Source: Vulcanimicrobiota bacterium (lineage in GTDB: Bacteria; Vulcanimicrobiota; Xenobia; Xenobiales; Xenobiaceae). Taken from it: DNA of 64,000 nucleotides. The DNA is taken from the NCBI GenBank assembly GCA_944322965.1, contig CALUQR010000006.1, positions 38,456-102,455 on the forward strand. Direction: 5' to 3'. Positions 5,008 through 52,450 of the stretch are shown here, in pieces; within the stretch, counting starts at the first letter, position 1; every line of letters starts with the position of its first letter. The notes below the pieces were generated by a model that was not told the origin of the DNA, ran no database searches, and saw only the letters and a program-made list of their open reading frames with translations. Made by a program: the position numbers and the translations under genes.

Positions 5008-5017
5008 GAGTCTCATC

Positions 5018-12436: not shown

Positions 12437-12457
12437 TGAGCGCTCTAGTTAGCGCAG

Positions 12458-12508
12458 TGGCTGCCCCTCTAGGAGCTCGCTCCTAGAGGGGCAGCCATAC
12501 CCTTTTTT
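12458..12508 (+). terminator. Strong GC hairpin (tggctgcccctctagga / tcctagaggggcagcca) followed by a T-tract, between pfaA and the next PKS gene. It could be an intrinsic terminator or attenuator.
   Basis: A perfect 17-bp inverted repeat followed by cccttttttaa. Confidence 0.55.
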
Positions 12509-12541
12509 AAGACCCCAGACATTTTTTAGGGTGAAAACGAA

Positions 12542-19735: not shown

Positions 19736-19757
19736 TTAAGCTAATTCGGAATTAGGC
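19736..19757. repeat. Solo copy of the TAAGCTAATTCGGAATTAGG motif shared with the terminal repeats of the MITE-like element. It overlaps the stop codon of the cysteine desulfurase gene.
   Basis: taagctaattcggaat is identical at 19736 and 36830. Confidence 0.5.
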
Positions 19758-20863
19758 TAAAACGCAATACGCACGGCGCCCAACGCGTACTCCCTCTGCA
19801 GTTTCAAGGCTTTAATTACATGAGAGATCTGGAAATCGTGGGAGTCGCAGGCGGAGCCGGTGGCTACGGCTATCCCTTGGAGGTTGAGTCGCTGTTGGAT
19901 AGTCTCCCCTTCGCAGTTGGGGAAAGAAAGATTGAGCACCCCGGGCAGTTTGGGGGGGTGGCTATTGAGCTTAAAGGGCACCCCCTTCTCGCGCAGGAGT
20001 CGGAGTAGTTCGTCTTCCAAACGTTGCAGATGCAAGTTTCTTTGCTGCAGATGGCGCAAACTCTCTTCTAGGGCTCGGGCCATGCCTACGATGGCGGCTA
20101 CGTTCTCTGTACCGGCGCGCAGGTTCCGTTCTTGGGCTCCGCCGTGGAGGAGGGGCTCGATCTCAATCCCTTGGCGCAGGTAGAGGAATCCTATCCCTTT
20201 GGGCCCTTGGAACTTATGGGCGGAGGCGGAGAGGAGGTCTACTCCCAGTTGGGGGATCTGCAAGTCGAGATGCCCTACCGCTTGGACGGCGTCGGTATGG
20301 AAATAGGCGCCCGCCTGGTGGGCGCGTTGGGCCAGCTGGGGGATAGGTTGCAAACAGCCTAGCTCATTATTGGCGGTCATAATAGAGACTAAGGTGGCGT
20401 TGGGACCCAATTCCGCTTGCAGGGTCTCCGGCTGGACCCGCCCTTCCCGGTCTACGGGCAAGTAGCTGACAGGCAAGTTAAAGAAGCGCTCTAGGTACTG
20501 GGCGCAGCGCAGGACGGCGTGATGTTCTATCTGGGAGGTTAGGAGCACAGCTCCCCCCTGGGGCGCCCAGAAGTTAGGACCCCGCTCTAAGATGGTACGC
20601 TCAATAATCCCGCGCAAGGCCCAGTTATCGGCCTCCGTACCTCCGGAGGTAAAGTAGATCTCCTGGGGCAAGACCCCTAGGGCGCGGGCGATAGTGGCTC
20701 GGGCCTCTTCGATAGCCTTCTTAGCTTGACGTCCCAGGCGGTAGAGCGAGGAGGGGTTCCCGAAGCGCTCTTGGAGGTAGGGGCGCATCACTTCTAGAGC
20801 TGCGGGACTTAAGGGGGTGGTGGCGGCGTTATCTAGATAGAGTGGGGGCTCAAACTTAGCCAA
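19757..20863 (-). CDS. Class V aminotransferase / cysteine desulfurase (NifS/IscS/DndA-like). It is the last gene of the BREX-containing co-directional block.
   Basis: The PLP-lysine region SAHKFQGPKGIGFLY and the N-terminal YLDNAATTP motif. It overlaps the upstream zinc-ribbon gene by 8 bp. Confidence 0.8.
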   Translation of the reverse strand: MAKFEPPLYLDNAATTPLSPAALEVMRPYLQERFGNPSSLYRLGRQAKKAIEEARATIARALGVLPQEIYFTSGGTEADNWALRGIIERTILERGPNFWAPQGGAVLLTSQIEHHAVLRCAQYLERFFNLPVSYLPVDREGRVQPETLQAELGPNATLVSIMTANNELGCLQPIPQLAQRAHQAGAYFHTDAVQAVGHLDLQIPQLGVDLLSASAHKFQGPKGIGFLYLRQGIEIEPLLHGGAQERNLRAGTENVAAIVGMARALEESLRHLQQRNLHLQRLEDELLRLLREKGVPFKLNSHPPKLPGVLNLSFPNCEGETIQQRLNLQGIAVATGSACDSHDFQISHVIKALKLQREYALGAVRIAF

Positions 20864-21059
20864 AGAGGGTACAGCCCTCCTCTTTAAAGAATTCGATCTG
20901 CTCTAAGAGATCTTCGGGGGTGGCGCCCAGCTCTTCGGCCAGACACTGCAGGCAGTAGAACTCGCGCACGTTGCGGCCGCGCAGTTTGCGATTTAAGCCC
21001 ACCTCGTTGCGGGTCAAAGGTTCGTGCCCGCAGGCGATACAGCGATACTTTTTAGCCAT
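20856..21059 (-). CDS. Small CxxC...CxxC zinc-ribbon protein (67 aa), possibly DUF2197/YlaI-like
   Basis: The sequence CIACGHEP...YCLQC. It begins 15 bp downstream of brxL and overlaps the desulfurase start. Confidence 0.45.
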   Translation of the reverse strand: MAKKYRCIACGHEPLTRNEVGLNRKLRGRNVREFYCLQCLAEELGATPEDLLEQIEFFKEEGCTLFG

Positions 21060-21074
21060 AATTGCGTTCCTAAG

Positions 21075-22547
21075 TTAGAAGTTAGAGATTAGCTCTTTAG
21101 AGCTGCGGAACTGGGGTTTGAGCTCTAAGGCGGGAACCCGTTTGCCGCGGTACTCGTTATCTAAGAGCCCCAGTTGGGTGACGATAGTTTGGCGCATCTC
21201 CATAGCCCTTTCCAGACAGTAGTGGCGGAAGAGCTCCCCGGGCACTTGGTTGGCCCGGCGCACGTGGGGGAAGAGCAGCTTGAGGTAGGCGGTGGCGATC
21301 CTCTTAATAGCCTCCGTATCGCGAGTATCGGCGGTCGCAGGCACTTCCAGGATCTCGTCTACTACGGCCCGGTAGGCGGTGTCGCTGCGCAATTCGTGCA
21401 TGATGGAGCAGAAATATTCGGAGTTTAAGGCCCAACCCGAGACCTTAATATTCTCGCGGATACGGGGTATATTCCAACCCTTAATAAAGCCGTGGAAGCG
21501 CTCTATGAGGGCCGACTCTTGGAAGATGGGGGGCACCTCTTGGAACATATTGGCCTGTCCGTCCTGGTCCATAATCTCTTTGCGCAAGTTGCCGCAGAGC
21601 ACTACTCCCGCTTCCGAGCGCCCGTGGTAATTGCCCACCGTAAATTGGCCCGACTCCATATACCCTTTGAGAGCGGCGCGCATCTCGTCGACGTCGGAGA
21701 AGGCGATAGTCTGCACCTCGTCTAAGACTACGAAATCGTGGCCGGAGATGAGGCCCTCCCGTTTGGTATTCATATCGTAGAACATCTTGGCCCGCGTCAT
21801 CTTTCCGCCGCTAGAGAGCCAGCCGAAGCGACTGATCTGACCGAAGAGGTAGGATTTGCCCGTCCCTTTGGGGGCCAGCTCGATGAGGTTGAGCCTCTTC
21901 TCCACAAAGGGCAAGAGGCGGGTAAGCATAGTCAACTTCTCTTCTAAGTTGAGGTAGCCCTCGGGGTTATAGTCGATAGCCCCTAAGAGGATATCGACCC
22001 ACTCTTCTAAGCTAAAATCTTCGCGGGCCTCTTGGAAATAGTCGAGCTCCACTCGGTAGGGGCAGAAATTCTTAAAGGAGCGCAAGAGGATCTTCCCGGG
22101 GTCCCGATCTTGGGCGGGTTGGTAGCCTAGCTCGACGATCCCCCAGGCCCCGCCCTCTTTGGTGAGGTCATGGGCCACTTCGTCCCAGACGTACTGCTCG
22201 ATGAGCGTCTCCCTAAAGCCCAGGCCGAACTCGGGCAAGGCGAAATTGACTTGGCCGCGGTTAATGTCGATATTAGTCTCGATCTTAGTGAGAAAGCGCA
22301 CCTCCTTATTCTCTAAGACTACCTGGGCCTTGAGGGCCTCCCAGTCGCTGCGGCGGGGCACGTGGGTGCGCACGAACTCCCGAAACTCCTCCTTATCGAA
22401 GTTGCCCTCGCTATCTTCGAAGCGCTGTAAGAGCCAGTCGCGCATAAAGGACGGCAAGCCCAAGGAACTAAAGAAGGCGCTCTCCTTAAGGTCCTTATAG
22501 AGGGCCATCTCCTCAAAATTATCGCGCAATTTGGCAACCGTATCCAT
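21075..22547 (-). CDS. brxL: BrxL-like P-loop protein (Lon-related ATPase) of a type 4 BREX operon
   Basis: The Walker A motif ELAPKGTGKSYLFGQISRFGW and its position after pglZ. At 490 aa it is shorter than type 1 BrxL. Confidence 0.5.
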   Translation of the reverse strand: MDTVAKLRDNFEEMALYKDLKESAFFSSLGLPSFMRDWLLQRFEDSEGNFDKEEFREFVRTHVPRRSDWEALKAQVVLENKEVRFLTKIETNIDINRGQVNFALPEFGLGFRETLIEQYVWDEVAHDLTKEGGAWGIVELGYQPAQDRDPGKILLRSFKNFCPYRVELDYFQEAREDFSLEEWVDILLGAIDYNPEGYLNLEEKLTMLTRLLPFVEKRLNLIELAPKGTGKSYLFGQISRFGWLSSGGKMTRAKMFYDMNTKREGLISGHDFVVLDEVQTIAFSDVDEMRAALKGYMESGQFTVGNYHGRSEAGVVLCGNLRKEIMDQDGQANMFQEVPPIFQESALIERFHGFIKGWNIPRIRENIKVSGWALNSEYFCSIMHELRSDTAYRAVVDEILEVPATADTRDTEAIKRIATAYLKLLFPHVRRANQVPGELFRHYCLERAMEMRQTIVTQLGLLDNEYRGKRVPALELKPQFRSSKELISNF

Positions 22548-22559
22548 CTCTCTCGCTCC

Positions 22560-24935
22560 CTAAAAATCGAACTCGCTATTCTGGGTCATCCCCTTCTTCT
22601 TACTCACTTGTATCTGCAACTCTTTTTGCAAGACTCCGCCCCGGTAGAGTTCCAGGGTGTAGGCAGCGGGGCCGGGCGGTTTCTCCCAGTAGGCTCGGTA
22701 GATACTGGGTTTTTCCTCTTGCAGGGGCAGGACTTCATCGTTCCAGCGCAGCTCTAAGTCGGGGGCGTTCGTCCAGGGTACTTGCAGATGCAAGGTTATC
22801 CCCTTCTTGCGGGAGTATTCCGCGCTGGGGGTCAAGAGCTCGATAGCGGGCAGACGCTCGGGGGGTAGGCTAGCCTTAGAGCTTAAGACTAGGAGGGGGA
22901 TGACTACCTCCTCTAGGGAGGCGCCCCCATGGACTTCCACTGAGGCCGCCCGGCCGCCCTTAAAGCGCTCGTAGTCGGCTAAGACCCAGTAGCCATTCTC
23001 CCGGCTGACATTCTCTAAATTGCAATCTTCCCACTCCGAGCAGGGGCAACAGCGCCCGGAATGGCGCCCCTTCTGGGCCATCTCATAACTGGCCTCTCGA
23101 CCATAGAGCACAGCCAGACGGGAGGCCCCGTGGTCGCTAGCTAAGAGCAGGCGCTGACACTGGCCCGACTCTAAGCGGCGGGCGCAATCTTGGACCACCC
23201 GGCGCAAGAGGCTAAGTTCCGCGGGCAGGTGGGTGGCGGCCCGACTCTCTTTAGAGAAGTCGTAATCGGCGTTGCCATGTTTGAGTTTATCCAGCTCCGA
23301 CTCTTTAACTTTAGGGCCCTGCCACTCTTCGAAGAAGTCTTTATTAGTAGAGGTCAGCGTAGGCAGATTGGCTCGCAAGATAGAGACTTGGCACTTTAAA
23401 TTAAACTCCCGGCAGAGGGCGACTAAGTAGGGCAAGTACTCTACCCCTAAGGCGTCTACCCAGTAAAGGCAGCTCCCGGGCTGATCGTATTTGGCGATAG
23501 GCCCCTCCTTAGTAGAGAGGCGATTATAGAGGCGCTCTATAGCCTGTTGGCGCACGATCTCTAAAAAGTCGGCAGGGATCGAATTTAAGACTTTGGCCTC
23601 CCGGTAAGTTTGGAAGTAGGAGTCCATAAAGTCTAAGCTCCGGTCCTCTAAGGGCAACTTGTAAAAAGGGGCCGCCCCATTTAAATAGCGCCCTAAGTCG
23701 GGGTAATGCTTCTCTACCAATTGGCGCTCGCTAACCCCCAAACTCCCCTTTTGGGCTAAGTAGCGCAGCCACTCGATGCGCTCTATAGGGGTAAGGTCGC
23801 TTAAATAATTCTGGTAATCCTGCTGGCGGCGCAGCTGGGGCAGCCAGGTTTGAGCCCAGTCGGGGGTCAGCTGGTCTAAGGGCGAGCGCTTTAAAAGCTC
23901 ATAGCGCTCCCAGAAGAGCTCCTCCCGGGCGGAGGCCTGCTTAGGGGCGGATTCTTCCCAGAGGGTAGACCATAAGCGCTCCCCCAAATCTTCGGGCGTC
24001 TGGGAGGCGCGCATTACCCTCTCCAAGTAGCGTTGGGGCTGGGGATTTAAGCCGTACTCTTCCTTTAAGCCTAGCCACAATTGCCAGCGCTCTTGGATTT
24101 TGGCCTCGCCCCCTAAGGAGCTAGCCACCCGGGCTAAGCGCTCGGGCAGGGAGAGGCCGCTAGGGCGCAGCTCAGCCTCTAAACCCTTAGAGAGGGCGTC
24201 TATTTCTACTTCCCGGTGGCGCTCTAAGAGCTTCTCCCAACGCTCCGGGCTGCCCCAACCCTCTTCCCAGCGCATTAAGGGCCCTAAGCGCTCTTTAAAG
24301 ACCGCCCAGGCGGAATCTAAGGAGCGGATCTTGAGGCTAGCTTGGCTCCAGGGGATGGCGCTCTGGTAGTCCAGGCGGCGACTATCGCCCGGGCGCCACT
24401 CCTCTAGGGCGTAGAGGAGATTTTTTAAACCTTGGTAGCAATTGGAGCTAGGGGCCCAGCCCAGATCTTGCCAGCGCACGATCTCTAGCTCTAGTTGGGG
24501 GTTCCACTCCTCTAAGATATGGAGGTAAGGCTTAAAGCGCGGGTCGCGCTGGGCCGCCTCCTCCAAAAAGCGCTGCCGCCCCCGCCAGAGGAAGATCAGT
24601 TGCTGCTGTGGCTCTAAGGAGAGGCGCTCCTGGCGCTCTAAGAGCTCTTGCAGCCCCTCCCGATAGCCGCGCAGGGCGGCCCACTCCCCGCAGCCCACCA
24701 CTAAGATCTGGGCCCTAGGATTCTCCGCCAACTCCTGGCGCAGCGCCCGCCACAAGCGCTCAAAGTTGGGGATCTTGTCGGGATGGGGACAGTAGTCGGA
24801 GAGTCGCCAGGTGGTAAAACCCTCGCCAGCTAGGCTCTCGCGGGTCGCCCTCCACTCGGCCCCCACTACTAACCAGTGGGGCCGTCCCCCGCCGTAGGCG
24901 GGGGGCGCCGGTGCGCAATAAGAGTCCATCTCCAA
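22560..24935 (-). CDS. pglZ: PglZ-domain protein (alkaline-phosphatase superfamily) of BREX
   Basis: The C-terminal region carries YWVDALGVEYLPYL ... LLLASDHGASRL, the TSDHG-like PglZ signature. It is flanked by brxC and brxL. Confidence 0.6.
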   Translation of the reverse strand: MEMDSYCAPAPPAYGGGRPHWLVVGAEWRATRESLAGEGFTTWRLSDYCPHPDKIPNFERLWRALRQELAENPRAQILVVGCGEWAALRGYREGLQELLERQERLSLEPQQQLIFLWRGRQRFLEEAAQRDPRFKPYLHILEEWNPQLELEIVRWQDLGWAPSSNCYQGLKNLLYALEEWRPGDSRRLDYQSAIPWSQASLKIRSLDSAWAVFKERLGPLMRWEEGWGSPERWEKLLERHREVEIDALSKGLEAELRPSGLSLPERLARVASSLGGEAKIQERWQLWLGLKEEYGLNPQPQRYLERVMRASQTPEDLGERLWSTLWEESAPKQASAREELFWERYELLKRSPLDQLTPDWAQTWLPQLRRQQDYQNYLSDLTPIERIEWLRYLAQKGSLGVSERQLVEKHYPDLGRYLNGAAPFYKLPLEDRSLDFMDSYFQTYREAKVLNSIPADFLEIVRQQAIERLYNRLSTKEGPIAKYDQPGSCLYWVDALGVEYLPYLVALCREFNLKCQVSILRANLPTLTSTNKDFFEEWQGPKVKESELDKLKHGNADYDFSKESRAATHLPAELSLLRRVVQDCARRLESGQCQRLLLASDHGASRLAVLYGREASYEMAQKGRHSGRCCPCSEWEDCNLENVSRENGYWVLADYERFKGGRAASVEVHGGASLEEVVIPLLVLSSKASLPPERLPAIELLTPSAEYSRKKGITLHLQVPWTNAPDLELRWNDEVLPLQEEKPSIYRAYWEKPPGPAAYTLELYRGGVLQKELQIQVSKKKGMTQNSEFDF

Positions 24936-24956
24936 CCTCCCTTAAAGCCTGCTTAG

Positions 24957-27900
24957 TTAAAAGGGTTTATCGATTAGGGCGATCCCCAATTCCACATCGT
25001 CTTTAATGACATCCAGTAAGAGCGTTTTGAGCACCTCCGGGGGCAGCTCGTCTAAGCGGCGGCTGAGGCGGGGCAGCCCCGTCTCCTTATATTCCGCTTC
25101 GGCCAGCTCCTTAATGGCGGGCAACATCTGGGGTTCGGTCCAGTCGTAGACCGGCGCCTTCATCTTCTTAGCTAAGCTCTCGCAGAAGCTATGGGAGGAG
25201 GGCACGAAACTATGGTAATGGCCCGCCACCCGCTGCCGGAACTGGAGTTTAGCCCGGGGCAGGTCGTTCATTAAGCCAAAGAGCGAGCTCTTCTCCAGCC
25301 ACTCCAAGATGCGCTTGGCCTCCTCTTCCCCTAAGGAGGATTGGGAGTCGTTTAAAACTCGGAAGGCGGATTCCGAGATCTCGCGCTCCTCTTGGGGCAC
25401 TAAGTAGCGGATGGGGATGAGGTTTTTTTGCGACCATTCCCGAGGATTAGGGGAGCCGCTCTTCTCTTGCCACAGGCGTTGGATGCGCCCTTGCAAGCTC
25501 TTGCGCCGCTGGGAGGCGGCCAATTTTAAAACCTGCTTTTGGGCGGAATCGAGGGAGCCGCTCGAGATATTGAGGTGGCTAGCCCGCAACTGGGCGAAGA
25601 CCTCGCCCACCGAGTCGTCGTCTAAGCCCTGGAGCTGGGTCTTATAGAGGCTCTTAAAGGAGTCTAACTCGTTGCCAAAGAGCTCCCCTAACTTCTGACC
25701 CTCCTCCTGCAAAGCGCCCAGCCACTGCTTGCGCACTAGGTCGGAGTTATAATCCCGGTAACCCTTACATAAGCGGTCTAAGCGATCGACTAAGCCCGGG
25801 CTGAGGGCCCCGCTCTCTAAGCTCGTTAAGGTGGAGAAGGGCAAGCTGAGCTCGGAGAGGCGCTTACTGAGCTCGTTCATAGCCTCCTGGAGCCCACCCT
25901 TGGGACCTTGCCCTAAGAGATTCGTCAGACGCCAGAGGAGCTCTAACTCATCCCCTACCCCGGAGATCGTATCTTGGCCTATCTCCTTAGTCCAGGAGTA
26001 GGCCATGTCCGTCGAGAAGGCCGATTGCAGGCGCTCCTGGAGCTTTTTAGGCTCCCAACCCAATTGGGCCGTCAGCTTATTTAAGCGCCCCTCCTGGAAT
26101 TTATCTAAGAAGTCGCGCAAAGCTTGCAGGGCCTTATCCTTACCCACCGCCTCCCGCAGACGGCTAGCCCACTCCTGGCCCCGCTCTTGGTAGAGCCGGC
26201 CCAACTCTTGGGCTTTGGGGCGGGCGGAGGCCGGGCCCTCCTTAGAGATCTCCCAGAAGAGTTGCAAACCTTGGACCACCTGGGGATCGTCTAAGCGCTC
26301 CCAGACCATCCATAAGGGCCAGACCCGCTCCTTTAAGGCCGCCCCTAAACGCTTCTGCCAGCTGGAGAAGTCGGACTCGTTGAGCTTAAAACTCCACACA
26401 TAAGAGGCCAACTTCTTAAAGCTGACCATCTCCGGCGACTCTCGCACCAGGGTGACCTTATTCTTATCGTTCCCGCGCACGAGGTTATTGAGCTGGTCCT
26501 GGAGCTTCCCGATATCCATAACGCCCCCGGCCCCCGCCCGATCGGCGTAACTATATTTCGGGTCCTGGTACTCCTTTAAGAGGAAGCCTAAAAGGAAGCC
26601 GTAGAGGTTATTGGGCCTAAAGCAGGCCTCCTTAACTAGATAATTCCAGACCTCTTGCCAGCCGATGTGGCCGTTAGAGCCTAGATTTTTCTCCATCAGC
26701 TCTTCTAAATGGGCCTTCAATTGGGAGATGGGCAGAACCTTAAGTTGGGGGACCTGCCAATAATTGGGGACGCTCCACACCTCCCCTAAGCCCAGGCGCT
26801 TTTCGATCTCCGCCATCTCTCCCTTAGGCTGGGCGGGGGCCTCTAAGCCGGCCCGAATGAAGCGGGAGGGGCTCAAGTTGAGCCAGCTATCTTTGAGCCG
26901 CTCATTTAAATCGAATAAGGGGTAAGAGGATGAGGCGCTCAAGAGGCGCTTTAGCTCTTCGCAGAGGGTATTTAAGGTAGGATACTTCTGCCCCGGTTTC
27001 TTTAACTTAGAGCCATAGAGGCGGAAGGGCCCCTCCGCCAATTTGGAGAGCCAAACCTGCTCGAGGAGACTCTCCGCCTTCTTGCGACTCTCCTCCGCCT
27101 GGCTGCGGTCCTTGCTACTATAGAGCGAGGCGTAGGCCATGCCCTCAATATAGTCGCCAAAATTCTTGGGCGAGAGCAAGGTGGAGGTGAGATCTACTAA
27201 GACGGTCTGGCCCCCGCCCTCCTGTTCCCAGTCGACCTTATCCAAAAGATCCTCCAATTGGCGGCTCTCCCCTTCGTCTTTAGCTACTACTAACCCCCAC
27301 TTGAGCGGACTCTTGCGCTCTAAGAGGCGCTTCAACTGGCGACCAAAGTCGGAGACGGTCAAGAGTTCAGGAGTATCTAAACGCTGGGCCAGGGCCTTCC
27401 CTAAAGCCTCGCCGCTCATCTCTAAGAGGTGGTGCTCTTTAAGATACTTACTGGCTAAGTTGGAGGTAGTAATACTCTTAGCCAGGCGCTCTTTGATCTT
27501 CTCTAACTCGATCTCGTCGCCCACCCCTAAGGCCACCACGTAGCAGTAATCGTTACTAGAGATAGACCGATCCTTAGCGATAACGTGTTTCTCGCGCAGC
27601 TCCTCTAAGCTCTTAGCTACGCAATCGTTGGCTAGACCCTCCCCCACGAAGGCCCACTCTAAGTGTTCCTGGGTGGTCTCTAAGAGCTTCACTTGGTTAT
27701 TGCAGGCCCTATTGACGGCCAACATAATTAAGAGAGCTTGCAAGACCCGCCCCGCCTCCGGACTCAGGTGGCGAGCGTAGCGCTTATAAGTACCCAAGAT
27801 GCGGTTGGCGTCTGAGGTCAGGTCCTCTTTTTTATATTCGGTAAAGTACTGCCAAAGCAGGTCCACGGTCAGTAAGGGGCGGTCCCCGTAGGGGCCGTAG

Positions 27901-29156
27901 GTGTGGATATACCACTGGAAGGCGTAACTTTTGGGCTCCTCTAAGCGCAAGAAGTCAAATAAGCTGCGCTGGTTCGATTGGAAGGTAGTAGCTACAAACT
28001 TTAAGACCAGGGCCGCCAAGGGGTGGAGGGGCAAGATTTTAAATAGGGTCTCATGATCTTCTAGACGGGACTCAGCCCCTATAGCCTCTACCACCTTCTG
28101 CAGGCGCTGGCGCAGGATCTTGATATCTTCATTAAACTCTGAGGCCTTCTCAGGGAGAAGGTGCAAGGCGTTGGCGATTAAGTGGAAGGCCACATTTTCG
28201 GGCATATCGATGCCCACCCGTTCGAAGCGGTCTTGGATGGGATTGCCCTGGCTCTCTTCGCTAGCCGCGTGGTGGGTGACGATAGTCAGGAAGAAGTTGC
28301 CCTCTTGGGCCAGGGCGGCGATCTTCTGTAAGCTATCTAAGCTCTTGGCGTTGCGATTCATGTAGGAGGAGAATTCGTCCCACAGAAAGACCAGCTGGAT
28401 CCCATTGCGGGCGATGACCTCTCGCATCCAGGCCGTCAGACTGTCGACGCTGGGGGCCATAAAGATCTCCTCCTCTTGGCGCAAGAGCTCCACCAGGTTG
28501 CGCACTAAGGAACCCGTATCCTCCCCTTGGCGCAGATCATCTAAGATTTCTGCGGCCGTACTCTGGCTAAAGAGGTTGCACCAGGGAGACTGGCTCAGAT
28601 GGCGCTCTACGATAGACGCGTAGGGGGGATCGCTCAACTTTTCGATCAGGCGCTCTCGGCTGGTAGCATTCCCTAAGTAGGAGCAGCCCGCCTCTCGGAG
28701 GGCCTGGGAGATAGACTCCTCAAAGGCCAGACAGAGGTTAGTCGTATCGCCAATTTCACCCGAGCCGTAGCGGAAGGCGATCACCATCTTCTGGCGGCTC
28801 TTAAGGCCTAAGAACTTTTGTAAGAGGTCCTTACGCCCCTCCTTTAACTCCTGGAAGCGATCCCAATACTCTTGGACTTCCTGGGCGGGCCGCTCTAAGA
28901 TGCGGCGCAGGGCTAAAAGGCACTGGGACTTACCCGTCCCGTAGGGACCGTAGATCCACAGCCCCTTAGTGGAGGAGCCATTTAAGATCTGCTCGGCCTT
29001 CTCCAAGAGCTTAATGAAGGTGGGGTGGGGGTAAGTATTCTTCCACTCCGCCCCTCTCTTAATAGCCCCCAGGTCGATACAGGGGAAATAGTTCTTTTGT
29101 AGCTGGAAGTATTGGCTGTAAGTCTCCGTCTCCGGAGCGGCGAGCACGGCGGGCAT
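24957..29156 (-). CDS. brxC: BrxC/PglY-like large P-loop NTPase
   Basis: The N-terminal Walker A motif LWIYGPYGTGKSQCLLAL. The 1399-aa size and the position between brxP and pglZ also fit. Confidence 0.55.
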   Translation of the reverse strand: MPAVLAAPETETYSQYFQLQKNYFPCIDLGAIKRGAEWKNTYPHPTFIKLLEKAEQILNGSSTKGLWIYGPYGTGKSQCLLALRRILERPAQEVQEYWDRFQELKEGRKDLLQKFLGLKSRQKMVIAFRYGSGEIGDTTNLCLAFEESISQALREAGCSYLGNATSRERLIEKLSDPPYASIVERHLSQSPWCNLFSQSTAAEILDDLRQGEDTGSLVRNLVELLRQEEEIFMAPSVDSLTAWMREVIARNGIQLVFLWDEFSSYMNRNAKSLDSLQKIAALAQEGNFFLTIVTHHAASEESQGNPIQDRFERVGIDMPENVAFHLIANALHLLPEKASEFNEDIKILRQRLQKVVEAIGAESRLEDHETLFKILPLHPLAALVLKFVATTFQSNQRSLFDFLRLEEPKSYAFQWYIHTYGPYGDRPLLTVDLLWQYFTEYKKEDLTSDANRILGTYKRYARHLSPEAGRVLQALLIMLAVNRACNNQVKLLETTQEHLEWAFVGEGLANDCVAKSLEELREKHVIAKDRSISSNDYCYVVALGVGDEIELEKIKERLAKSITTSNLASKYLKEHHLLEMSGEALGKALAQRLDTPELLTVSDFGRQLKRLLERKSPLKWGLVVAKDEGESRQLEDLLDKVDWEQEGGGQTVLVDLTSTLLSPKNFGDYIEGMAYASLYSSKDRSQAEESRKKAESLLEQVWLSKLAEGPFRLYGSKLKKPGQKYPTLNTLCEELKRLLSASSSYPLFDLNERLKDSWLNLSPSRFIRAGLEAPAQPKGEMAEIEKRLGLGEVWSVPNYWQVPQLKVLPISQLKAHLEELMEKNLGSNGHIGWQEVWNYLVKEACFRPNNLYGFLLGFLLKEYQDPKYSYADRAGAGGVMDIGKLQDQLNNLVRGNDKNKVTLVRESPEMVSFKKLASYVWSFKLNESDFSSWQKRLGAALKERVWPLWMVWERLDDPQVVQGLQLFWEISKEGPASARPKAQELGRLYQERGQEWASRLREAVGKDKALQALRDFLDKFQEGRLNKLTAQLGWEPKKLQERLQSAFSTDMAYSWTKEIGQDTISGVGDELELLWRLTNLLGQGPKGGLQEAMNELSKRLSELSLPFSTLTSLESGALSPGLVDRLDRLCKGYRDYNSDLVRKQWLGALQEEGQKLGELFGNELDSFKSLYKTQLQGLDDDSVGEVFAQLRASHLNISSGSLDSAQKQVLKLAASQRRKSLQGRIQRLWQEKSGSPNPREWSQKNLIPIRYLVPQEEREISESAFRVLNDSQSSLGEEEAKRILEWLEKSSLFGLMNDLPRAKLQFRQRVAGHYHSFVPSSHSFCESLAKKMKAPVYDWTEPQMLPAIKELAEAEYKETGLPRLSRRLDELPPEVLKTLLLDVIKDDVELGIALIDKPF

Positions 29157-29162
29157 GGGGGG

Positions 29163-31592
29163 CTATACCTCCTGGATGAGCTCTAGGACCTGAGCCGAGG
29201 ACTGGGGTCCCAAATTGATAGAGTCGAGGTCATGTGTGAAGCTGACCTGAATATATTCGGGGTAACGGGCGTTTAATCCCAGTAAGGGGGCTTTAAGTTG
29301 AGCGGGAGTCGCCCCCCACAAGCGCAAGGGACTGACCGCCTGGCGCTCGGCGGTAGGATCGGCCAACTGCCCCAAATTGAAGGCCCGATACTCGCCCCCC
29401 ATAGCCTCCGCAAATTTAAATAGGCTGTAGAGTAAGACTAAAGGCGACCCCCACTTAGGAGCGGTGCGCACCAAATACTCCTCTTTGCCCTTCTTCTCTA
29501 CCCTGCCCCAATTGAGAACCGTCCCTAAGGGGGTGGCAGCTAGGCGTTTGAAAGCCTTAACGATAGAGGCCGCATCCTTATCGCTAATCCCCAGCTCTTT
29601 TAGAGCCCCCACCAACTCTTCCCGCGCATAACGGTGTTTCAGATCCATAAAGTTGGTGTACCAGGCCATTTGGGGGTTAGTGTAGACTAAATTAGTCAAA
29701 ATCAACCCCAAAGCGTTCTCTGAATCCCAGCCCAAACGAGAGATAAATTCCGCAAATTCAGTGAAGGTGTTGCGACCATTTAATCCAGCATCTCTCAAAA
29801 AACGCCGGAAGAAATCAAACATATTGGAACCTAGGCTATGTTCCGTATAGAACCTTTGCTTAAGTGCAAAGAATGAGCGCAACCATTCCGTCTTTGGTGC
29901 ATGGTCAGCAAAAGTGTTGAGGCTGCTTTTTACCATTTTATGAGCTCCTGTTCCAGGTGGGAAATGCAAGGATTTATAGGCCAGACAATTGCCTGGAATA
30001 TCATAACAATCATGACATTGACGACAGTTCTCTATACGAACTTCGCCCTCATGAAAACTTATGGCCCCATAAGGGCAAGTAATTTCACAAGTTTGACATG
30101 CAATACAATGAGCCGTTTTGCGTAAAACAGCCCGTAAGGAAGTAATAAATTTAGGAGATGATTTGACAGTGTGCGGGTCAACCGTAATTTTAAAACCCAA
30201 TGCAGTCTTCTCAAATTGTACTTCAAACGTCTCTTTGGGAGTCATCAGTGTCAGCGAATTGCCAAGTAAAAAGACGTCTCCAATAGTCTTAAACCATTGT
30301 CGCCAGTCGGATAGTGGCTTAACTAACTCAAAGACTAGAGTTCCATTTCGCTCACATTCTATGATGTGTGACTTGTTTTTGGCTAGTGATCGCCCATTAC
30401 GACGCAATTGCCAGCCACCGCCAACCAAATAGCTTAGTTTTAGCTTCTTTTGTTCTTCAACCGTAGTATCTGCATCTTTTTCGGGGACATCATAGCTATT
30501 ACGCACTATCTTGGCGAAACGTTCGACCTTATCAGTATAGTTAGCCCAACGGAAATAATTCGCCAGGTTACCTGTCATGGGGCACAATAAACACCCAGCT
30601 CTAGAGTTACCCTTCTTATAGCCAGCATTAATCGTTAAGTTTCTAGAGAATATGTAAAGCCAAATTTCGGCTGAATTCCATTCTAAGAGAGGATTGAAGC
30701 TGTATTGCCCCTTTTGTTTTTTGCTGTAATTGTCGTAAGTGTATTCTGAGCGGCTTAGGCTTTCTGCACGTCGTACGCCCACAAAGTCCAATCCCTTATA
30801 GTTGGGCTTACCGCTCAAACGGCGAAGAGTAAGTGTCTGCGGCGTACTCTTATGCACGCAACAACACCAGCGCGCCACCTTGGCAGGAGGAGCGAACTTA
30901 CGCCAAGATGCTTCAGGAGTACATTGGGCTTTTGTTCGTTCAAAAGATATGCCCTCATTACGACATTTACGCTCATCTTGACGAACAGCCGCCAAGGTGT
31001 CAGGAAATTCCATTCCTGTATCGGCGAAGAGAACAACAAAACTATTGGCAGGTAACGCTGATTTTACAAGGTCTAACAGGACGATACTGTCCTTGCCTCC
31101 CGAATAAGCCACATGGAATATATCGACTATTGATTGGTATCTTTCATACGCATCCAATATTTTTTGAATCGTATCCGCAACTAAGACTTCTAAAAGTTGA
31201 GAGTTAGCAGCGAGCATTGCCCCCATATCAATAGGTTTTAGAATTTGTTCCTTAAATACGCAGGAACTCATTTCAGCGTCAGAGAACAAGACGCCCTGCC
31301 CAGAGCTCGTTTCCCTACTTTCATCCCAATTGACATCAAAGAAAGTCACCGTTGGTTTTTCGTAAAGATTACCCCCACGCAGCTGAGCAATCAGTTGCCC
31401 CCGATAGTAATACTTGCTCCCTTCTGCCCACATATAAGGAACTGATTCATTAGAATCATATTTCCAACGAGAATTAAAACCCAAGAGATCCATTTCTTGG
31501 GCCCATACTGGTCTAGGCTCCTTAGAGAAGGCTAACGGCAAATCACGCAAGATGATTCCGCCGGTAGCGGGATCGTAGGCATAAGAATACAT
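29163..31592 (-). CDS. brxP: BrxP-like protein: a PAPS-reductase/PP-loop domain (SGGKDS) plus a 4Fe-4S ferredoxin-type motif (CIACQTCEITCP) and a C-terminal extension
   Basis: The PP-loop HVAYSGGKDSIVLLDLV and the CxxCxxCxxxCP cluster motif. DndC-like chemistry, in the type 4 BREX gene order brxP-brxC-pglZ-brxL. Confidence 0.65.
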   Translation of the reverse strand: MYSYAYDPATGGIILRDLPLAFSKEPRPVWAQEMDLLGFNSRWKYDSNESVPYMWAEGSKYYYRGQLIAQLRGGNLYEKPTVTFFDVNWDESRETSSGQGVLFSDAEMSSCVFKEQILKPIDMGAMLAANSQLLEVLVADTIQKILDAYERYQSIVDIFHVAYSGGKDSIVLLDLVKSALPANSFVVLFADTGMEFPDTLAAVRQDERKCRNEGISFERTKAQCTPEASWRKFAPPAKVARWCCCVHKSTPQTLTLRRLSGKPNYKGLDFVGVRRAESLSRSEYTYDNYSKKQKGQYSFNPLLEWNSAEIWLYIFSRNLTINAGYKKGNSRAGCLLCPMTGNLANYFRWANYTDKVERFAKIVRNSYDVPEKDADTTVEEQKKLKLSYLVGGGWQLRRNGRSLAKNKSHIIECERNGTLVFELVKPLSDWRQWFKTIGDVFLLGNSLTLMTPKETFEVQFEKTALGFKITVDPHTVKSSPKFITSLRAVLRKTAHCIACQTCEITCPYGAISFHEGEVRIENCRQCHDCYDIPGNCLAYKSLHFPPGTGAHKMVKSSLNTFADHAPKTEWLRSFFALKQRFYTEHSLGSNMFDFFRRFLRDAGLNGRNTFTEFAEFISRLGWDSENALGLILTNLVYTNPQMAWYTNFMDLKHRYAREELVGALKELGISDKDAASIVKAFKRLAATPLGTVLNWGRVEKKGKEEYLVRTAPKWGSPLVLLYSLFKFAEAMGGEYRAFNLGQLADPTAERQAVSPLRLWGATPAQLKAPLLGLNARYPEYIQVSFTHDLDSINLGPQSSAQVLELIQEV

Positions 31593-31638
31593 GGGACCTG
31601 GTACACATGACGAGGCATGCTTAATATATCATCAAGTT

Positions 31639-34600
31639 TTAGCTGCTGATTTTCCTCAGCAAACTAAGCCCGCGCTCTTCGCTCAGTCTCCCCAAGTATC
31701 CCCCCTCAATTAGATACTCTGAAATAGCCTCCATAGTTGGCCTAACTTTAGCTCGCTTCAAAACGACAACTAGCGCATCTTCGTAATCTATTTGGCACTC
31801 TTTCCGCATCAGTAAGCCAAGAATTTTTACTGTCCATTGCCTATGAGAAGGCAAAAGTAATTTAAAACGTTTACTAAATCGATAACAGTAGGAGCTCAAT
31901 AGATACTCATTCCAGGTATAACCGCAATAAGGTAAAGATAAGAATAAACTATTGGGAATATCTCCCACAGATAAGAATTCCGGCAAAATTTCATCTAGAA
32001 TACGATCAATTTCATCAACCTGAAAATCTACCATATTGGGCTGCACAAACTCTTTAGCATCAATGCGAACTAAGTATTGATAGCCATAGTCGAAGGCCAA
32101 TTGTCTAACCGCGCCCGGCTTTTCAGGAGCATTCAGAGCTTCACACCCCAGATCGTTTAGTTCATCCAAACTAACGATTTTCTCTCCCAAATCCTTACAC
32201 AACTGGCGCATCATATCCATACCGGAGATAGTATCCTGACCAAAACGATTAATAAAAGCGCTACTCCCTTTGCGTTGGTACTTGTCGGCCAAATACTTGA
32301 AGTAGAGCCCCTTGATCCAGGCCATTTCGGTCAGGCGCGAGTCGTTTAAGTAGTGCCACTCTTCTAAGGGTAAGGAGCTTAAAGTGAAGCTACCCTCCTT
32401 ATCTAAACCCTCTTCAATTATCCTTACCATCCGCTCCACTTCCTCTGGCGGCAGTTCGAAATAATTTAAGTTGAGATAACTGGCGCAGCGGCTGGCGGTG
32501 CTAGTCTCATTTAAAACTAACTCCTCGCCCTCGCCGATGGCTAATTTAATATCCGCTTCCCCTAAGTAGGGCAGGCGCTCCTGCAGTTGGGGTAAGGTCA
32601 ATAAACTCTCCCCGCCCCAGTGGGCCCGCACCTCCCCTAAGAGTAAGCGCTCTAAATTCTTTTCCTGAGGCTCTAAAGTATAAAAATACTCCTTCTGGCC
32701 CTTAGTAGTCTTAGTAATTAACCGACCAGGCAAGTTGAGGCGCTCTAAGAGACTGGGCCAAAGCTCTACCTGGCGCAAGTTCAACTCCTCTAAATTGTGG
32801 CGCGCCCCTAAACGCTCTAAGTTAAAGACCCTCCAATCGCGCTGGCGAGCCTCCTCCAAGATCTTCTCTAACCTCTTCTCTAACTGCGGGTAATAAAAAT
32901 AATAAGAGACGCCCTCCGCACTCTCTAAAGGTAAACCGCAACGCTCTAAAAGGTCCCTATAACCCTCCTCACTCAAAGCCAAAAGGGCGTCCCGCTGCGC
33001 GTGGCCACCATAGTTAGCGCGCACCTTGTACAAAAACTTCTTATAACCCAAACGGTCGCCCATCAAAATGCCCCCGCTCTGCTCCAAAGCCACCTGACGC
33101 AAAGCCTCGCCCAAAGGACCCCAAGAGACCGCCCTACACCTAACCGGCTCTAACTTCTCTCTTACCAGAGGCCCTTTCTCGGGGGCCGGTTGTGACTCTA
33201 ACCTATGTACTGCATCGGGGGCCAGAGGCCCATTCGTCGGCCCAGGTTGCACCTCTAACTCATTTACTGCCTCAGACACAGGTTCCGGCTCTAACCTAGG
33301 GTCTACCTCGGCTGCAGGCTCAATCTCTACCTCTTCCGCAGGCCCAGGCTCGGACTCCACCTCAGCCCCAACCTCAGCCTCTCCCGCAGGCACAACCTCA
33401 ACCGCGGGGGCCGGCTCTAGCTCCACCTCCTCTGGGGTTAGGTAGATAGTTACTAACTGGGGATCTAAATTGAGCTCCCTAAAGAGGCGCTGGAAGGTCT
33501 GTAAGCTCCAGCCCCGCTCCTCTTTGAGCCGCCACCAGTAGCCGCCAATCTCAAAGACGCCCTCCACCTCGCCCTCGGAACCCTTCTCCTCTAAACGAGC
33601 GCCCATAGCCCTCAAAGCCCCCTCCAAACGCTGAGGACCACAACTAAAATCTAACTTGCGCAATAAAGACAACTGCCACGAGATCCAACCCGCAGACTCT
33701 AACTCTACCCTGCCCCCCTCGCCCCGCCACTCCCAAGCCGCCGGCTCATACCCATAAAAAGCCTGCGCCCCCTCCCCCAGGGCCAGGGCCAAAGGCCCTT
33801 TCGTCGGGGCCGGTTTTGCCCCTAACTCAGATACTGCCTCGGGGGCAGGCTCCACTCTAACCTCAGTTACCGGAGACGCCTTCGTCGGGGCCGGTTGCGC
33901 CCCTAACTCCGACTCAGGCTCGGGCTCTTCCGCGGGCGCTACTTCCGCCTCCACCTCAGCATCTTCCGCGGGCCATACTTCCGACTCGGGCGCAGGCTCA
34001 GTCTCAACCTCAGGCGCTACCTCGGACACCGGATCCGACTCTGCCTCAGGCGCCACCTCAGCCTCCACCTCTTCCGCGAGCCCTACCTCGGGTTCTATCT
34101 CTCCTACAGTTGTATCTGCAATATAATCCGCAATCTGAGAGGCGGGGTAGAGGTAAATTTTTACCTGGCGCAAGTCGATCCCTAAATGCTTAAAGAGGGG
34201 GCGGAAAGCCTTGATACTCCACTTATAATCTTCCCGGCCTACAAAGACGCGCTCCCCAATTACTACGTGGGGCTCTGAGGAGGCCTCTCTCATAAAATCG
34301 ATCCTCCACTTTAAGGGGATCTCTACCCGCTCTAAAAGCTTAACTAAGCGCCAAGGATCAAATTCCTCTAATAGCTGACTAACCAGAGAAACCTGCCAAG
34401 CGCTCCAGCTGGGCTGGGAGAGCTCCTCCCCTAAATGGAACTTACCCTCACACTCCCAAGCGATAGGGAGATAACCCTCAAAATCGGTTACCAAATTGAA
34501 AGGGGTCAAATAGAAGGGCTGTCTATCCGCCGCCGCAACTTCCGCTGGGGGTGTCTCTATGCTTGCATCTACAACACTATCCACAGGCGGACTACTCTCT

Positions 34601-52048: not shown

Positions 52049-52124
52049 TGGAGCGGAAGAAGAGATTCGAACTCTCGACCCTTGCCTTGGCAAGGCAATG
52101 CTCTACCGCTGAGCTACTTCCGCA
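52049..52124 (-). tRNA. tRNA-Gly(GCC), copy 1
   Basis: The reverse complement GCGGAAGTAGCTCAGCGGTAGAGCA TTGCC-TTGCCAA-GGCAA ...TTCGAATC...CTCCA forms a cloverleaf with anticodon GCC. Confidence 0.9.
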
Positions 52125-52180
52125 TCTACTATTTACTTATCCCCCCAGACGCCAAACCCAGACCCGCAAAAAGAAAAAGT

Positions 52181-52256
52181 TGGAGCGGAAGAAGAGATTC
52201 GAACTCTCGACCCTTGCCTTGGCAAGGCAATGCTCTACCGCTGAGCTACTTCCGCA
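52181..52256 (-). tRNA. tRNA-Gly(GCC), copy 2 (identical tandem duplicate)
   Basis: The sequence is identical to copy 1. A 56-nt spacer separates them. Confidence 0.9.
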
Positions 52257-52284
52257 TCTCCAACCATTCTGTCCCTCGTCTGGG

Positions 52285-52367
52285 TGGTGGGCAGGAAGGG
52301 ACTCGAACCCTTACGATTGCTCACTGGCTCCTAAGACCAGCGCGTCTACCATTCCGCCACCTGCCCC
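52285..52367 (-). tRNA. tRNA-Leu(TAG) with a long variable arm
   Basis: The reverse complement GGGGCAGGTGGCGGAATGGTAGACGC CTGGT-CTTAGGA-GCCAG ... CCCACCA. Confidence 0.85.
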
Positions 52368-52374
52368 GAAGGGG

Positions 52375-52450
<76 letters not shown>

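What the first reader, a model, noticed from the sequence alone, without database searches (positions are those of the whole stretch)
21075..31592. Type 4 BREX-like defence operon (brxP-brxC-pglZ-brxL)
Four co-directional genes have gaps of 6-21 bp. They encode a PAPS-reductase/PP-loop plus 4Fe-4S protein (BrxP-like), a 1399-aa P-loop NTPase (BrxC/PglY-like), a PglZ phosphatase-superfamily protein, and a Lon-related P-loop protein (BrxL-like). The order and content match the rare type 4 BREX, which lacks the PglX methyltransferase and whose mechanism is unknown. BrxL here is only 490 aa, shorter than canonical BrxL.
Basis: partly seen in the sequence, partly recalled or inferred. Interest (0 to 1): 0.75.

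Follow-up and report, generated by a model that had tools for sequence, protein, structure and literature searches.

The report
Phosphorothioate-type (type 4) BREX defence operon
This is a genuine but already known kind of bacterial anti-phage locus (type 4 BREX, which marks the cell's own DNA with sulfur), and its relatives suggest two features I did not find described: an unannotated DNA-binding gene always sitting in front of brxP, and a swappable middle segment of BrxP that may set which DNA sites get marked.

Summary
Four co-directional minus-strand ORFs (809, 1399, 791 and 490 aa; gaps 6, 21 and 12 bp) are BrxP, BrxC, PglZ and BrxL by PADLOC and NCBIfam. Pfam alone misses BrxC and PglZ.

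Three points in the reading need correcting:
- The mechanism is no longer unknown. Type 4 BREX was shown in 2026 to make DNA phosphorothioate.
- The 490-aa BrxL is the normal type 4 form.
- The operon has seven genes, not four. Downstream are a 67-aa zinc-ribbon protein and a DndA/SspA-like cysteine desulfurase, both recently reported. Upstream is a 1704-aa protein, "X".

X matches no library. Its C-terminal winged-helix array defines a family found directly upstream of brxP in 76 of 80 metagenome loci, 7 of 7 viral-contig loci and 6 of 6 others.

Near-identical metagenome relatives (99.7%) carry a different low-GC 2.9-kb allele. It spans the X C-terminus and BrxP residues 1-679.

In unrelated gut lineages, BrxP residues ~330-690 are shuffled as a cassette between otherwise identical loci. 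This makes the cassette a candidate determinant of phosphorothioate site specificity.

The locus is a new member of a known kind. Its value lies in these testable leads.

The parts
31639..36753 (-). Gene X: a 1704-aa protein with no library match and the first gene of the unit. It has five ~105-aa repeated modules joined by Pro/Ala/Glu-rich linkers, followed by a C-terminal winged-helix array.
   Evidence: ORF. No hits in Pfam, PADLOC, NCBIfam or PHROGs. Repeat and linker layout. Metagenome gene callers also call it, as 1704 or 1697 aa.
33436..36210 (-). Span holding the five homologous modules of X: aa 182-290, 450-551, 598-703, 745-871 and 986-1106 (nt 35884-36210, 35101-35406, 34645-34962, 34141-34521, 33436-33798). 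They have a tentative SeqA C-terminal-domain-like fold.
31642..32667 (-). C-terminal tandem winged-helix / HTH array of X (aa ~1363-1704). This is the conserved hallmark of a family always encoded just upstream of brxP.
29556..32429 (.). Low-GC (0.435) allelic cassette covering X aa 1442-1704, the intergenic spacer and BrxP aa 1-679. Otherwise 99.7%-identical relatives carry a ~50%-identical alternative allele here.
   Evidence: GC profile. blastn breakpoints. 60-nt identity windows. Protein comparisons. GC of both alleles.
29163..31592 (-). brxP: PAPS-reductase-like PP-loop sulfurtransferase, followed by an alpha+beta domain, a 4Fe-4S ferredoxin-like cysteine cluster and a divergent C-terminal DUF4007 (SspB-like HTH/wHTH).
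   Evidence: DUF4007 is supported through family members only. The domain scheme follows PMC12839542.
24957..29156 (-). brxC/pglY: a 1399-aa P-loop ATPase, SspC-like.
   Evidence: PADLOC BrxC 1.5e-167 over residues 12-1395, with weaker SspC models. Walker A at residue 70.
22560..24935 (-). pglZ, type 4 form (probable ATG start at 24929). The alkaline-phosphatase-superfamily motifs are readable: VDALG, PTLTS, SDHG, HGG.
   Evidence: NCBIfam BREX_PglZ_4 at 318 bits against a cut-off of 140, and PADLOC PglZ 4e-78. Sequence. The motif reading is my inference.
21075..22547 (-). brxL, short form: BrxL_N plus an MCM-like AAA+ ATPase, with no Lon-protease-like C-terminal domain.
   Evidence: Pfam BrxL_N and BrxL_ATPase, TIGR02688 above its cut-off, PADLOC PDLC02505 at 4.8e-217. 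Walker B FVVLDE at residue 272.
20856..21059 (-). 67-aa four-cysteine zinc-ribbon protein (CxxC at residues 7 and 36). It overlaps the cysteine desulfurase start by 8 bp.
   Evidence: Conserved between brxL and the desulfurase in L007, L009 and L010 (44-53% identity). Weak PHROG 'transcriptional repressor' hit at E 0.01. Reported as a frequent companion of the desulfurase in PMC12839542.
19757..20863 (-). Cysteine desulfurase (DndA/SspA/NifS-like, class V aminotransferase fold). It is the sulfur donor for phosphorothioation.
   Evidence: Pfam Aminotran_5 6e-73. PADLOC SspA 1.5e-119 and DndA 6e-119. NCBIfam NifS and DndA hits fall below their equivalog cut-offs.

Best explanation
This is a chromosomal seven-gene type 4 (phosphorothioate) BREX locus. 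The gene order is X, brxP, brxC, pglZ, brxL, a zinc-ribbon gene and a cysteine desulfurase.

Proposed mechanism:
- The desulfurase takes sulfur from cysteine as a persulfide.
- BrxP combines a PP-loop ATP pyrophosphatase of the PAPS-reductase family, an Fe-S cluster and SspB-like HTH/wHTH DNA-binding modules.
- BrxP and the SspC-like ATPase BrxC place the sulfur on a non-bridging backbone oxygen at short host motifs. This marks self DNA.
- PglZ (a metal-dependent phosphodiesterase/nuclease-type enzyme) and the short MCM-like BrxL ring ATPase then act on unmarked incoming DNA.

What is shown and what is inferred:
- Shown elsewhere: PT synthesis needs brxC, and brxP plus brxC (cloned together with mcrA) sufficed for it in a heterologous host that supplies a cysteine desulfurase. 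pglZ and brxL are dispensable for PT synthesis.
- Inferred: the restriction step, by analogy with type 1 BREX.
- Inferred here: X is a further DNA-binding subunit or regulator, because it is invariably linked to brxP.
- Inferred here: the central part of BrxP (residues ~330-690) is an exchangeable module that probably sets site specificity.
For: - Family assignments come from PADLOC, NCBIfam and Pfam.
- Catalytic motifs are intact.
- Spacing is operon-like: 46, 6, 21, 12, 15 and -8 bp.
- The same gene order is found in distant genomes (L009, L010, L011, L012). It also holds in the metagenome loci long enough to show it: brxP follows X in 76 of 80, and brxC/pglZ/brxL follow in order wherever the contig reaches them (62, 51 and 47 loci).
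- It recurs in 7 of 7 IMG/VR loci, two of which end before brxL.
- PT function of type 4 BREX, and the roles of brxP and brxC, are in PMC12914056.
- The desulfurase and the small zinc-finger protein as companions are in PMC12839542.
- The X stop codon lies 1-6 nt before brxP in 67 of 70 loci.
- Cassette exchange is supported.
Against: - No experiment exists for this locus.
- Anti-phage activity of any type 4 BREX is asserted but not, to my knowledge, directly demonstrated. PMC12914056 cites the 2015 BREX paper for it and says its own variants await testing.
- In B. salyersiae-derived constructs, brxP, mcrA and brxC alone reproduced the native PT dinucleotide pattern. X is therefore not needed for modification there, if that system has an X at all.
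- The window's BrxP and PglZ do not themselves pass Pfam DUF4007 or PglZ thresholds.
- The host organism was not identified.
Confidence: 0.88

Rival explanations
1. The locus is a phosphorothioate epigenetic or modification system without a restriction arm. On this view pglZ and brxL serve modification homeostasis or another role, and the locus does not exclude phage.
For: pglZ and brxL are not required for PT synthesis, and phage defence was not tested for type 4 systems. L007 keeps X-brxP-brxC-ZnF-desulfurase but lacks pglZ and most of brxL, so the modification half can persist alone.
Against: pglZ and brxL follow brxC in every fetched locus long enough to show them except L007. Their motifs are intact here. 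Cassette shuffling and population polymorphism are typical of genes in an arms race. Homologous PglZ and BrxL are needed for restriction in type 1 BREX (established knowledge, with abstracts listed).
Confidence: 0.1
2. The locus is better filed as an Ssp-type (SspABCD) phosphorothioation system that happens to sit next to PglZ and BrxL, rather than as BREX.
For: The desulfurase matches SspA (1.5e-119). BrxC also hits SspC models (1.6e-20) and BrxP hits SspD (4.6e-7). The literature treats BrxP as an SspD-SspB fusion and BrxC as an SspC homologue.
Against: The BREX-specific models score far higher: BrxP 3e-215, BrxC 1.5e-167, BREX_PglZ_4 above its cut-off. No SspB, SspE or SspFGH model hits any of the seven proteins. 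The fused, fixed order X-P-C-Z-L is the type 4 BREX signature. The difference is largely one of naming, because type 4 BREX is now regarded as a subset of PT systems.
Confidence: 0.05
3. These are housekeeping sulfur-metabolism genes (a CysH-type PAPS reductase plus a NifS/IscS desulfurase) that lie near unrelated ATPases by chance.
For: The Pfam PAPS_reduct and Aminotran_5 hits would fit on their own.
Against: BrxP scores far below every CysH/APS-reductase equivalog cut-off, for example 61 bits against 154. It is 809 aa with extra domains. The seven-gene arrangement recurs across phyla.
Confidence: 0.01

Closest known systems
Type 4 BREX (brxPCZL), as validated in Bacteroides salyersiae (Yuan et al., Nat Commun 2026, PMC12914056) and surveyed in PMC12839542
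   Same: The same four hallmark genes are present in the same order. BrxP has the same architecture (PAPS-reductase, alpha+beta domain, Fe-S cluster, DUF4007). BrxL is the short form. A linked cysteine desulfurase and small zinc-finger protein are present, as reported for 56% of taxa.
   Different: There is no mcrA insert and no WYL/BrxR gene next to the operon. A 1704-aa upstream gene (X) is present. I did not find its family among the components listed in the main text or supplement lists of either paper. This lineage has a high-GC host with a low-GC brxP 5' part.
SspABCD-SspE phosphorothioation defence
   Same: It shares a cysteine desulfurase, a PAPS-reductase-like sulfurtransferase, an ORC/Cdc6-type ATPase and an HTH/wHTH DNA-recognition module. 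It uses the same PT chemistry.
   Different: Here the recognition module is fused to the sulfurtransferase. The effector genes are PglZ and BrxL rather than SspE/SspFGH. The Ssp HMMs score orders of magnitude worse than the BREX models.
Type 1 BREX (brxA-brxB-brxC-pglX-pglZ-brxL)
   Same: It shares BrxC, PglZ and BrxL homologues, and the self-marking plus exclusion logic. A DNA-binding gene leads the operon: BrxA there, X here.
   Different: Marking is by sulfur, not N6-adenine methylation. There is no PglX. BrxL lacks the Lon-like C-terminal domain. X shows no detectable sequence relation to the BrxA-like DUF4007 (hhalign probability 0.8%).
Target-recognition-domain shuffling in Type I R-M HsdS and similar specificity subunits
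   Same: A divergent internal segment flanked by conserved sequence is exchanged among otherwise near-identical loci. One backbone therefore carries several alternative cassettes, and one cassette occurs on several backbones.
   Different: The shuffled segment lies in a sulfurtransferase fusion protein. Its link to site specificity is an inference only. No inverted repeats or recombinase were seen next to it.

Membership tests
Type 4 BREX | BrxP: a PAPS-reductase-domain protein in place of the PglX methyltransferase | tested here: met
   PADLOC BrxP 3e-215 over residues 1-801. Pfam PAPS_reduct 97 bits against a cut-off of 22.5. SGGKDS PP-loop present. No methyltransferase domain in any of the seven genes or in the flanking genes scanned.
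Type 4 BREX | BrxC/PglY large P-loop ATPase | tested here: met
   PADLOC BrxC 1.5e-167, full length, with Walker A at residue 70. The NCBIfam type-1-oriented BREX_BrxC model is not met (20.6 bits against a cut-off of 400), as expected for a different subtype.
Type 4 BREX | PglZ of the BREX-4 subtype | tested here: met
   NCBIfam NF033445 BREX_PglZ_4 at 318 bits against a cut-off of 140, and PADLOC PglZ 4e-78. Pfam PglZ is not detected at E<=0.01.
Type 4 BREX | BrxL (Lon-related / MCM-like AAA+) | tested here: met
   TIGR02688 at 412 bits against a cut-off of 329. Pfam BrxL_N and BrxL_ATPase both above their cut-offs.
Type 4 BREX | Co-directional, tightly spaced operon in the order P-C-Z-L | tested here: met
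   Gaps are 6, 21 and 12 bp. The same order is seen in relatives.
Type 4 BREX | Installs DNA phosphorothioates | not testable with these tools
   Known for homologous systems (PMC12914056). Testing here needs LC-MS/MS or PT-seq on this organism or a clone.
Type 4 BREX | Excludes phage | not testable with these tools
   This needs plaque or transformation assays. The literature support for type 4 specifically is thin.
SspABCD-SspE | Stand-alone SspB and an SspE (or SspFGH) PT-sensing effector | tested here: not met
   No SspB, SspE, SspF, SspG or SspH PADLOC model hits any of the seven proteins at E<=0.01.
Dnd (DndABCDE) | DndC and DndA equivalogs with a DndD ABC-type ATPase and DndE | tested here: not met
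   TIGR03183 DndC scores 21 bits against a cut-off of 290. TIGR03235 DndA scores 334 against a cut-off of 480. No DndD or DndE hits.
SeqA C-terminal DNA-binding domain (for the five modules of X) | SeqA-C fold, with recognition of hemimethylated GATC | tested here: inconclusive

The most novel reading that the evidence does not exclude
Type 4 BREX may have two features that are not yet recognised.

(1) It may have a further core subunit, the X family. X has a variable N-terminus, here five possibly SeqA-like DNA-reading modules, and a conserved winged-helix array. It is closely abutted to brxP (stop codon 1-6 nt before brxP in most loci), an arrangement compatible with translational coupling.

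(2) The BrxP segment ~330-690 (alpha+beta domain, Fe-S cluster and the first HTH/wHTH units of DUF4007) may be a horizontally shuffled target-recognition cassette. This cassette, rather than BrxC, would set the phosphorothioate motif.

The window's population, with two alleles on a 99.7%-identical background, would be a natural experiment for testing this.
Probability: 0.35. Interest if true: 0.7.

Novelty: new member of a known kind. Interest (0 to 1): 0.5.

Why it matters
As annotated, the locus is one more example of a rare but described defence system. A standard defence-finder would call it.

The extra value comes from comparing it with its relatives. What decides where type 4 BREX places phosphorothioates is an open question. 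The 2026 study swapped BrxC between species to test this and got no modification at all.

Natural chimeras supply ready-made constructs for that test. They have the same backbone with different BrxP cassettes, or the same cassette on different backbones. BrxC stays unchanged in these chimeras.

A conserved gene that no library annotates sits in front of brxP in essentially every locus examined. This suggests the accepted parts list is incomplete, which matters for anyone trying to reconstitute defence rather than just modification.

Tried and rejected
- **Pfam alone.** It finds nothing significant in BrxC, PglZ or X. PADLOC and NCBIfam were needed.
- **X C-terminal array as a stand-alone DUF4007/SspB.** Rejected. 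hhalign against the BrxP C-terminal alignment gives probability 0.8%. DUF4007 weakly matches the BrxP tail family instead.
- **X C-terminus as a motif reader that must co-vary with the BrxP cassette.** This was suggested by the joint swap in the window's population. It is rejected as a general rule. In four gut lineages the X array is 96-100% identical between loci with different cassettes, no lower than between loci with the same cassette.
- **The untested 'unknown' gene of B. salyersiae as the X homologue.** It lies downstream of brxL (HMPREF1532_02796), so it is not X.
- **Host identification.** It failed. The genome-contig scan returned only four distant loci. The cyanobacterial HIP1 octamer is not enriched (3 found, 1.7 expected).
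- **Promoter and terminator scans.** Uninformative; counts were near shuffle expectation.
- **Sequence searches of X against PDB and PHROGs.** Nothing found.
- **afdb50 fold library.** Not available.
- **Foldseek check of the SeqA-like module.** Not significant, so that assignment stays tentative.
- **Supplementary files of PMC12914056.** Not held.
Full report
**1. Observation**

The four ORFs exist exactly as described, all on the minus strand:
- 29163-31592 (809 aa)
- 24957-29156 (1399 aa)
- 22560-24935 (791 aa from TTG; an ATG two codons in, at 24929, gives the 789 aa that metagenome gene callers report)
- 21075-22547 (490 aa)

The gaps are 6, 21 and 12 bp.

**2. Identity of the four genes**

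PADLOC gives near full-length, very strong matches:

| Protein | PADLOC E-value |
|---|---|
| BrxP | 3e-215 |
| BrxC | 1.5e-167 |
| PglZ | 4e-78 |
| BrxL | 4.8e-217 |

- NCBIfam places PglZ in BREX_PglZ_4 (318 bits, cut-off 140) and BrxL in TIGR02688 (412 bits, cut-off 329).
- Pfam finds PAPS_reduct and weak Fer4 in BrxP, and BrxL_N plus BrxL_ATPase in BrxL. It finds nothing significant in BrxC or PglZ. A Pfam-only test would therefore have wrongly 'refuted' the finding.
- Motifs are intact: SGGKDS PP-loop (BrxP 164), CxxCxxCxxxC (BrxP 496), Walker A GPYGTGKS (BrxC 70) and Walker B FVVLDE (BrxL 272).
- The short BrxL is the normal type 4 form. It fills a 482-position PADLOC model, and BrxL in other type 4 loci is 486-498 aa.

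**3. The unit is larger than four genes**

- Fifteen bp after brxL lies a 67-aa four-cysteine zinc-ribbon ORF (20856-21059).
- It overlaps by 8 bp a 368-aa cysteine desulfurase (19757-20863) that matches SspA and DndA models at about 1e-119.
- Both are conserved in the same positions in L007, L009 and L010.
- Forty-six bp upstream of brxP ends a 1704-aa ORF, X (31639-36753). It has no hit in Pfam, PADLOC, NCBIfam or PHROGs.
- The flanks are chromosomal: a PUFA-synthase-like PKS cluster on one side, and RTX/M91 genes, a two-component system, thiI and tig-clpP-clpX on the other.

**4. What is known about the system**

- Type 4 BREX is no longer of unknown mechanism.
- In Bacteroides salyersiae it makes DNA phosphorothioates. 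Deleting brxC abolishes PT.
- A clone carrying brxP, mcrA and brxC reconstituted the native dinucleotide pattern in a host that has SufS, whereas brxC alone did not. [quoted passage not shown]
- brxZ and brxL are dispensable for PT (PMC12914056).
- BrxP is viewed as an SspD-SspB fusion and BrxC as an SspC homologue.
- The restriction step and phage exclusion by type 4 systems remain inferred.

**5. Gene X**

*C-terminal array*
- A full HMMER scan with X residues 1184-1704 found 991 representative proteins at E<=1e-3.
- The conserved region is X residues ~1370-1691. In all 150 hits listed it lies at the C-terminus of proteins of 321-1582 aa.
- Ten homologues have no Pfam domain there.
- An AlphaFold2 model of X 1355-1704 (pLDDT 86.8) shows about five helix-helix-helix(-hairpin) units.
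- The region is therefore a tandem winged-helix array with no full-length structural precedent in PDB. It is not detectably related to the DUF4007 tail of BrxP.

*Linkage to brxP*

| Source of loci | X homologue directly upstream of brxP |
|---|---|
| BrxP-seeded genome loci | 4 of 4 |
| Look-ups seeded on X-family proteins | 2 of 2 complete (L011, L012) |
| Best metagenome loci seeded on X | 76 of 80 |
| IMG/VR loci | 7 of 7 |

- Of the four metagenome exceptions, three contigs end within about 160 nt of the X match. The fourth, L030, has about 600 nt left with no brxP hit.
- The X stop codon is 1-6 nt before brxP in 67 of 70 cases. X homologues are 433-1603 aa, median 828.
- I did not find this family among the type 4 components listed in the main text or supplement lists of PMC12839542 or PMC12914056. 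Their gene-neighbourhood figures were not readable, so prior depiction as a 'hypothetical' gene cannot be excluded.

*N-terminal modules*
- Upstream of the array, X has five homologous ~105-aa modules separated by Pro/Ala/Glu-rich linkers.
- Foldseek gives no significant hit, although SeqA has the best TM-score, 0.44. I treat the SeqA-like fold as tentative.
- The module recurs weakly in the N-termini of other X-family proteins. Yet others carry different DNA-binding N-termini. L009 X, for example, has stretches I read by eye as resembling an RpoA C-terminal domain and sigma-70 region 4; no search was run on them.

**6. Population polymorphism in the window's own lineage**

- The GC profile drops from ~0.57 to 0.39-0.49 between 29400 and 32600.
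- Twenty-three metagenome contigs encode an identical BrxL. L003 is 100% identical to the window.
- L001, L002, L004 and L005 are 99.7% identical from 11075 up to 29555. Homology then stops and resumes at 32429.
- The replaced 2.9 kb encodes BrxP residues 1-679 and X residues 1442-1704. BrxP 1-679 is roughly 45% identical between alleles by my reckoning from the 54% whole-protein figure, while residues ~681-809 are 100% identical. X 1442-1704 is roughly 30% identical, estimated the same way from the 65% figure over 507 residues.
- Both alleles are low-GC, 0.435 and 0.41.
- The nearest BrxP relatives in genomes (40-47% identity) are Selenomonadaceae, other Bacillota and a Planctomycetaceae MAG.
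- L004 additionally carries a ~1.25-kb frameshifting deletion in brxC between imperfect 14-nt direct repeats.
- L006 has a disrupted brxP. Either variant could be an assembly artefact.

**7. The same phenomenon elsewhere**

- All-against-all blastn of the 80 metagenome loci shows many pairs that are 94-99% identical apart from a 0.8-1.1-kb homology gap inside brxP.
- At protein level, BrxP 1-210 is ~100% identical. Identity decays across 210-330, falls to 20-60% over 330-690 (or 720), and returns to ~100% afterwards. The right-hand boundary is the same as in the window pair.
- I clustered 68 BrxP sequences by flanks and by cassette:
  - flank type 8 carries cassette types 8, 22 and 40;
  - flank type 9 carries 8, 15 and 18;
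  - flank type 11 carries 8, 13 and 34;
  - cassette type 8 occurs on four flank types.
- This reticulate pattern requires recombination, not merely relaxed constraint.
- Family-wide, residues 361-480 are the least conserved.
- By the published domain scheme, the cassette covers the alpha+beta domain, the Fe-S cluster and the first part of DUF4007. DUF4007 is the HTH/wHTH component regarded as the DNA-recognition element of Ssp-type systems.
- brxC and everything downstream stay near-identical across cassette types.
- The X array does not co-vary with the cassette in the gut lineages. Its replacement in the window's population therefore looks like a longer recombination tract rather than an obligatory pairing.

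**8. Interpretation**

- The locus is a bona fide, apparently intact type 4 (phosphorothioate) BREX system.
- Established by homology and literature: the desulfurase, BrxP and BrxC install PT.
- Inferred by analogy with type 1 BREX: PglZ and BrxL restrict unmarked DNA.
- Inferred from my comparisons: X is an additional DNA-binding component, and BrxP 330-690 is an exchangeable module that probably sets site specificity.
- The alternative that this is a modification-only system cannot be excluded without phage assays.

**9. Verdict**

As an annotation it is a new member of a known kind, of modest interest on its own. The comparative leads raise its practical value because they make the open question of PT-site selection in type 4 BREX directly testable.

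Noticed in passing
window 3382-19690 (+): A PUFA-synthase-like or heterocyst-glycolipid-type PKS cluster lies here. It has a PfaD-like enoyl reductase (3382-5007) and a 2472-aa KS-AT-(ACP x4)-KR-DH protein (5018-12436). It also has a 2382-aa protein with two KS-type domains, a weak AT match and FabA-type dehydratase domains (12542-19690). It ends 66 bp from the convergent desulfurase gene.
   Followed up: partly
window 37257-39020 and 39208-40929 (+): Two tandem paralogous genes each combine RTX calcium-binding repeats with a Peptidase_M91 effector-like domain. They are divergent from gene X across a ~500-bp spacer.
   Followed up: no
L004 (window equivalent 25109-26363): One population variant has a ~1.25-kb frameshifting deletion inside brxC between imperfect 14-nt direct repeats (CGCTTCTGCCAGCT / CGCTTCGGCCAGCT). 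This truncates BrxC to 949 aa and would be a PT-null variant if real. L006 has a brxP broken by indels.
   Followed up: partly
L007 8602-17923: A Selenomonadaceae MAG keeps X-brxP-brxC-ZnF-desulfurase but lacks pglZ and all but a remnant of brxL. It looks like a modification-only derivative of type 4 BREX.
   Followed up: partly
L012, L013, L094-L100: Some type 4 BREX loci sit in mobile or prophage-like contexts. A serine recombinase and a WYL (BrxR-like) gene lie upstream in L012. L013 has a WYL gene upstream, next to phage-type genes (Sipho_Gp157, AAA_24, an S24 repressor). Seven IMG/VR viral contigs carry X-brxP followed by brxC, pglZ and brxL as far as each contig reaches; four of them show all five genes.
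   Followed up: partly
window 32830-33130 (inside gene X): A second, milder patch of divergence (88-98% in 60-nt windows) separates the window from L004. It lies outside the main cassette and suggests an additional recombination tract. Also, a relative with a divergent C-terminus (P0003, 1304 aa; 65% identical to the window's, the same figure as the window vs L004) has three of the repeated modules where the window has five.
   Followed up: no
window 43919-45682 (-): thiI (tRNA 4-thiouridine / thiamine sulfurtransferase) lies next to a 2-thiouracil desulfurase-family gene. These are further sulfur-transfer genes about 12 kb from the BREX locus. No link was established.
   Followed up: no
window 52049-52450 (-): A cluster of four tRNA genes: Lys-CTT, Leu-TAG and two copies of Gly-GCC. 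No integrase or island boundary was seen between it and the BREX locus.
   Followed up: no
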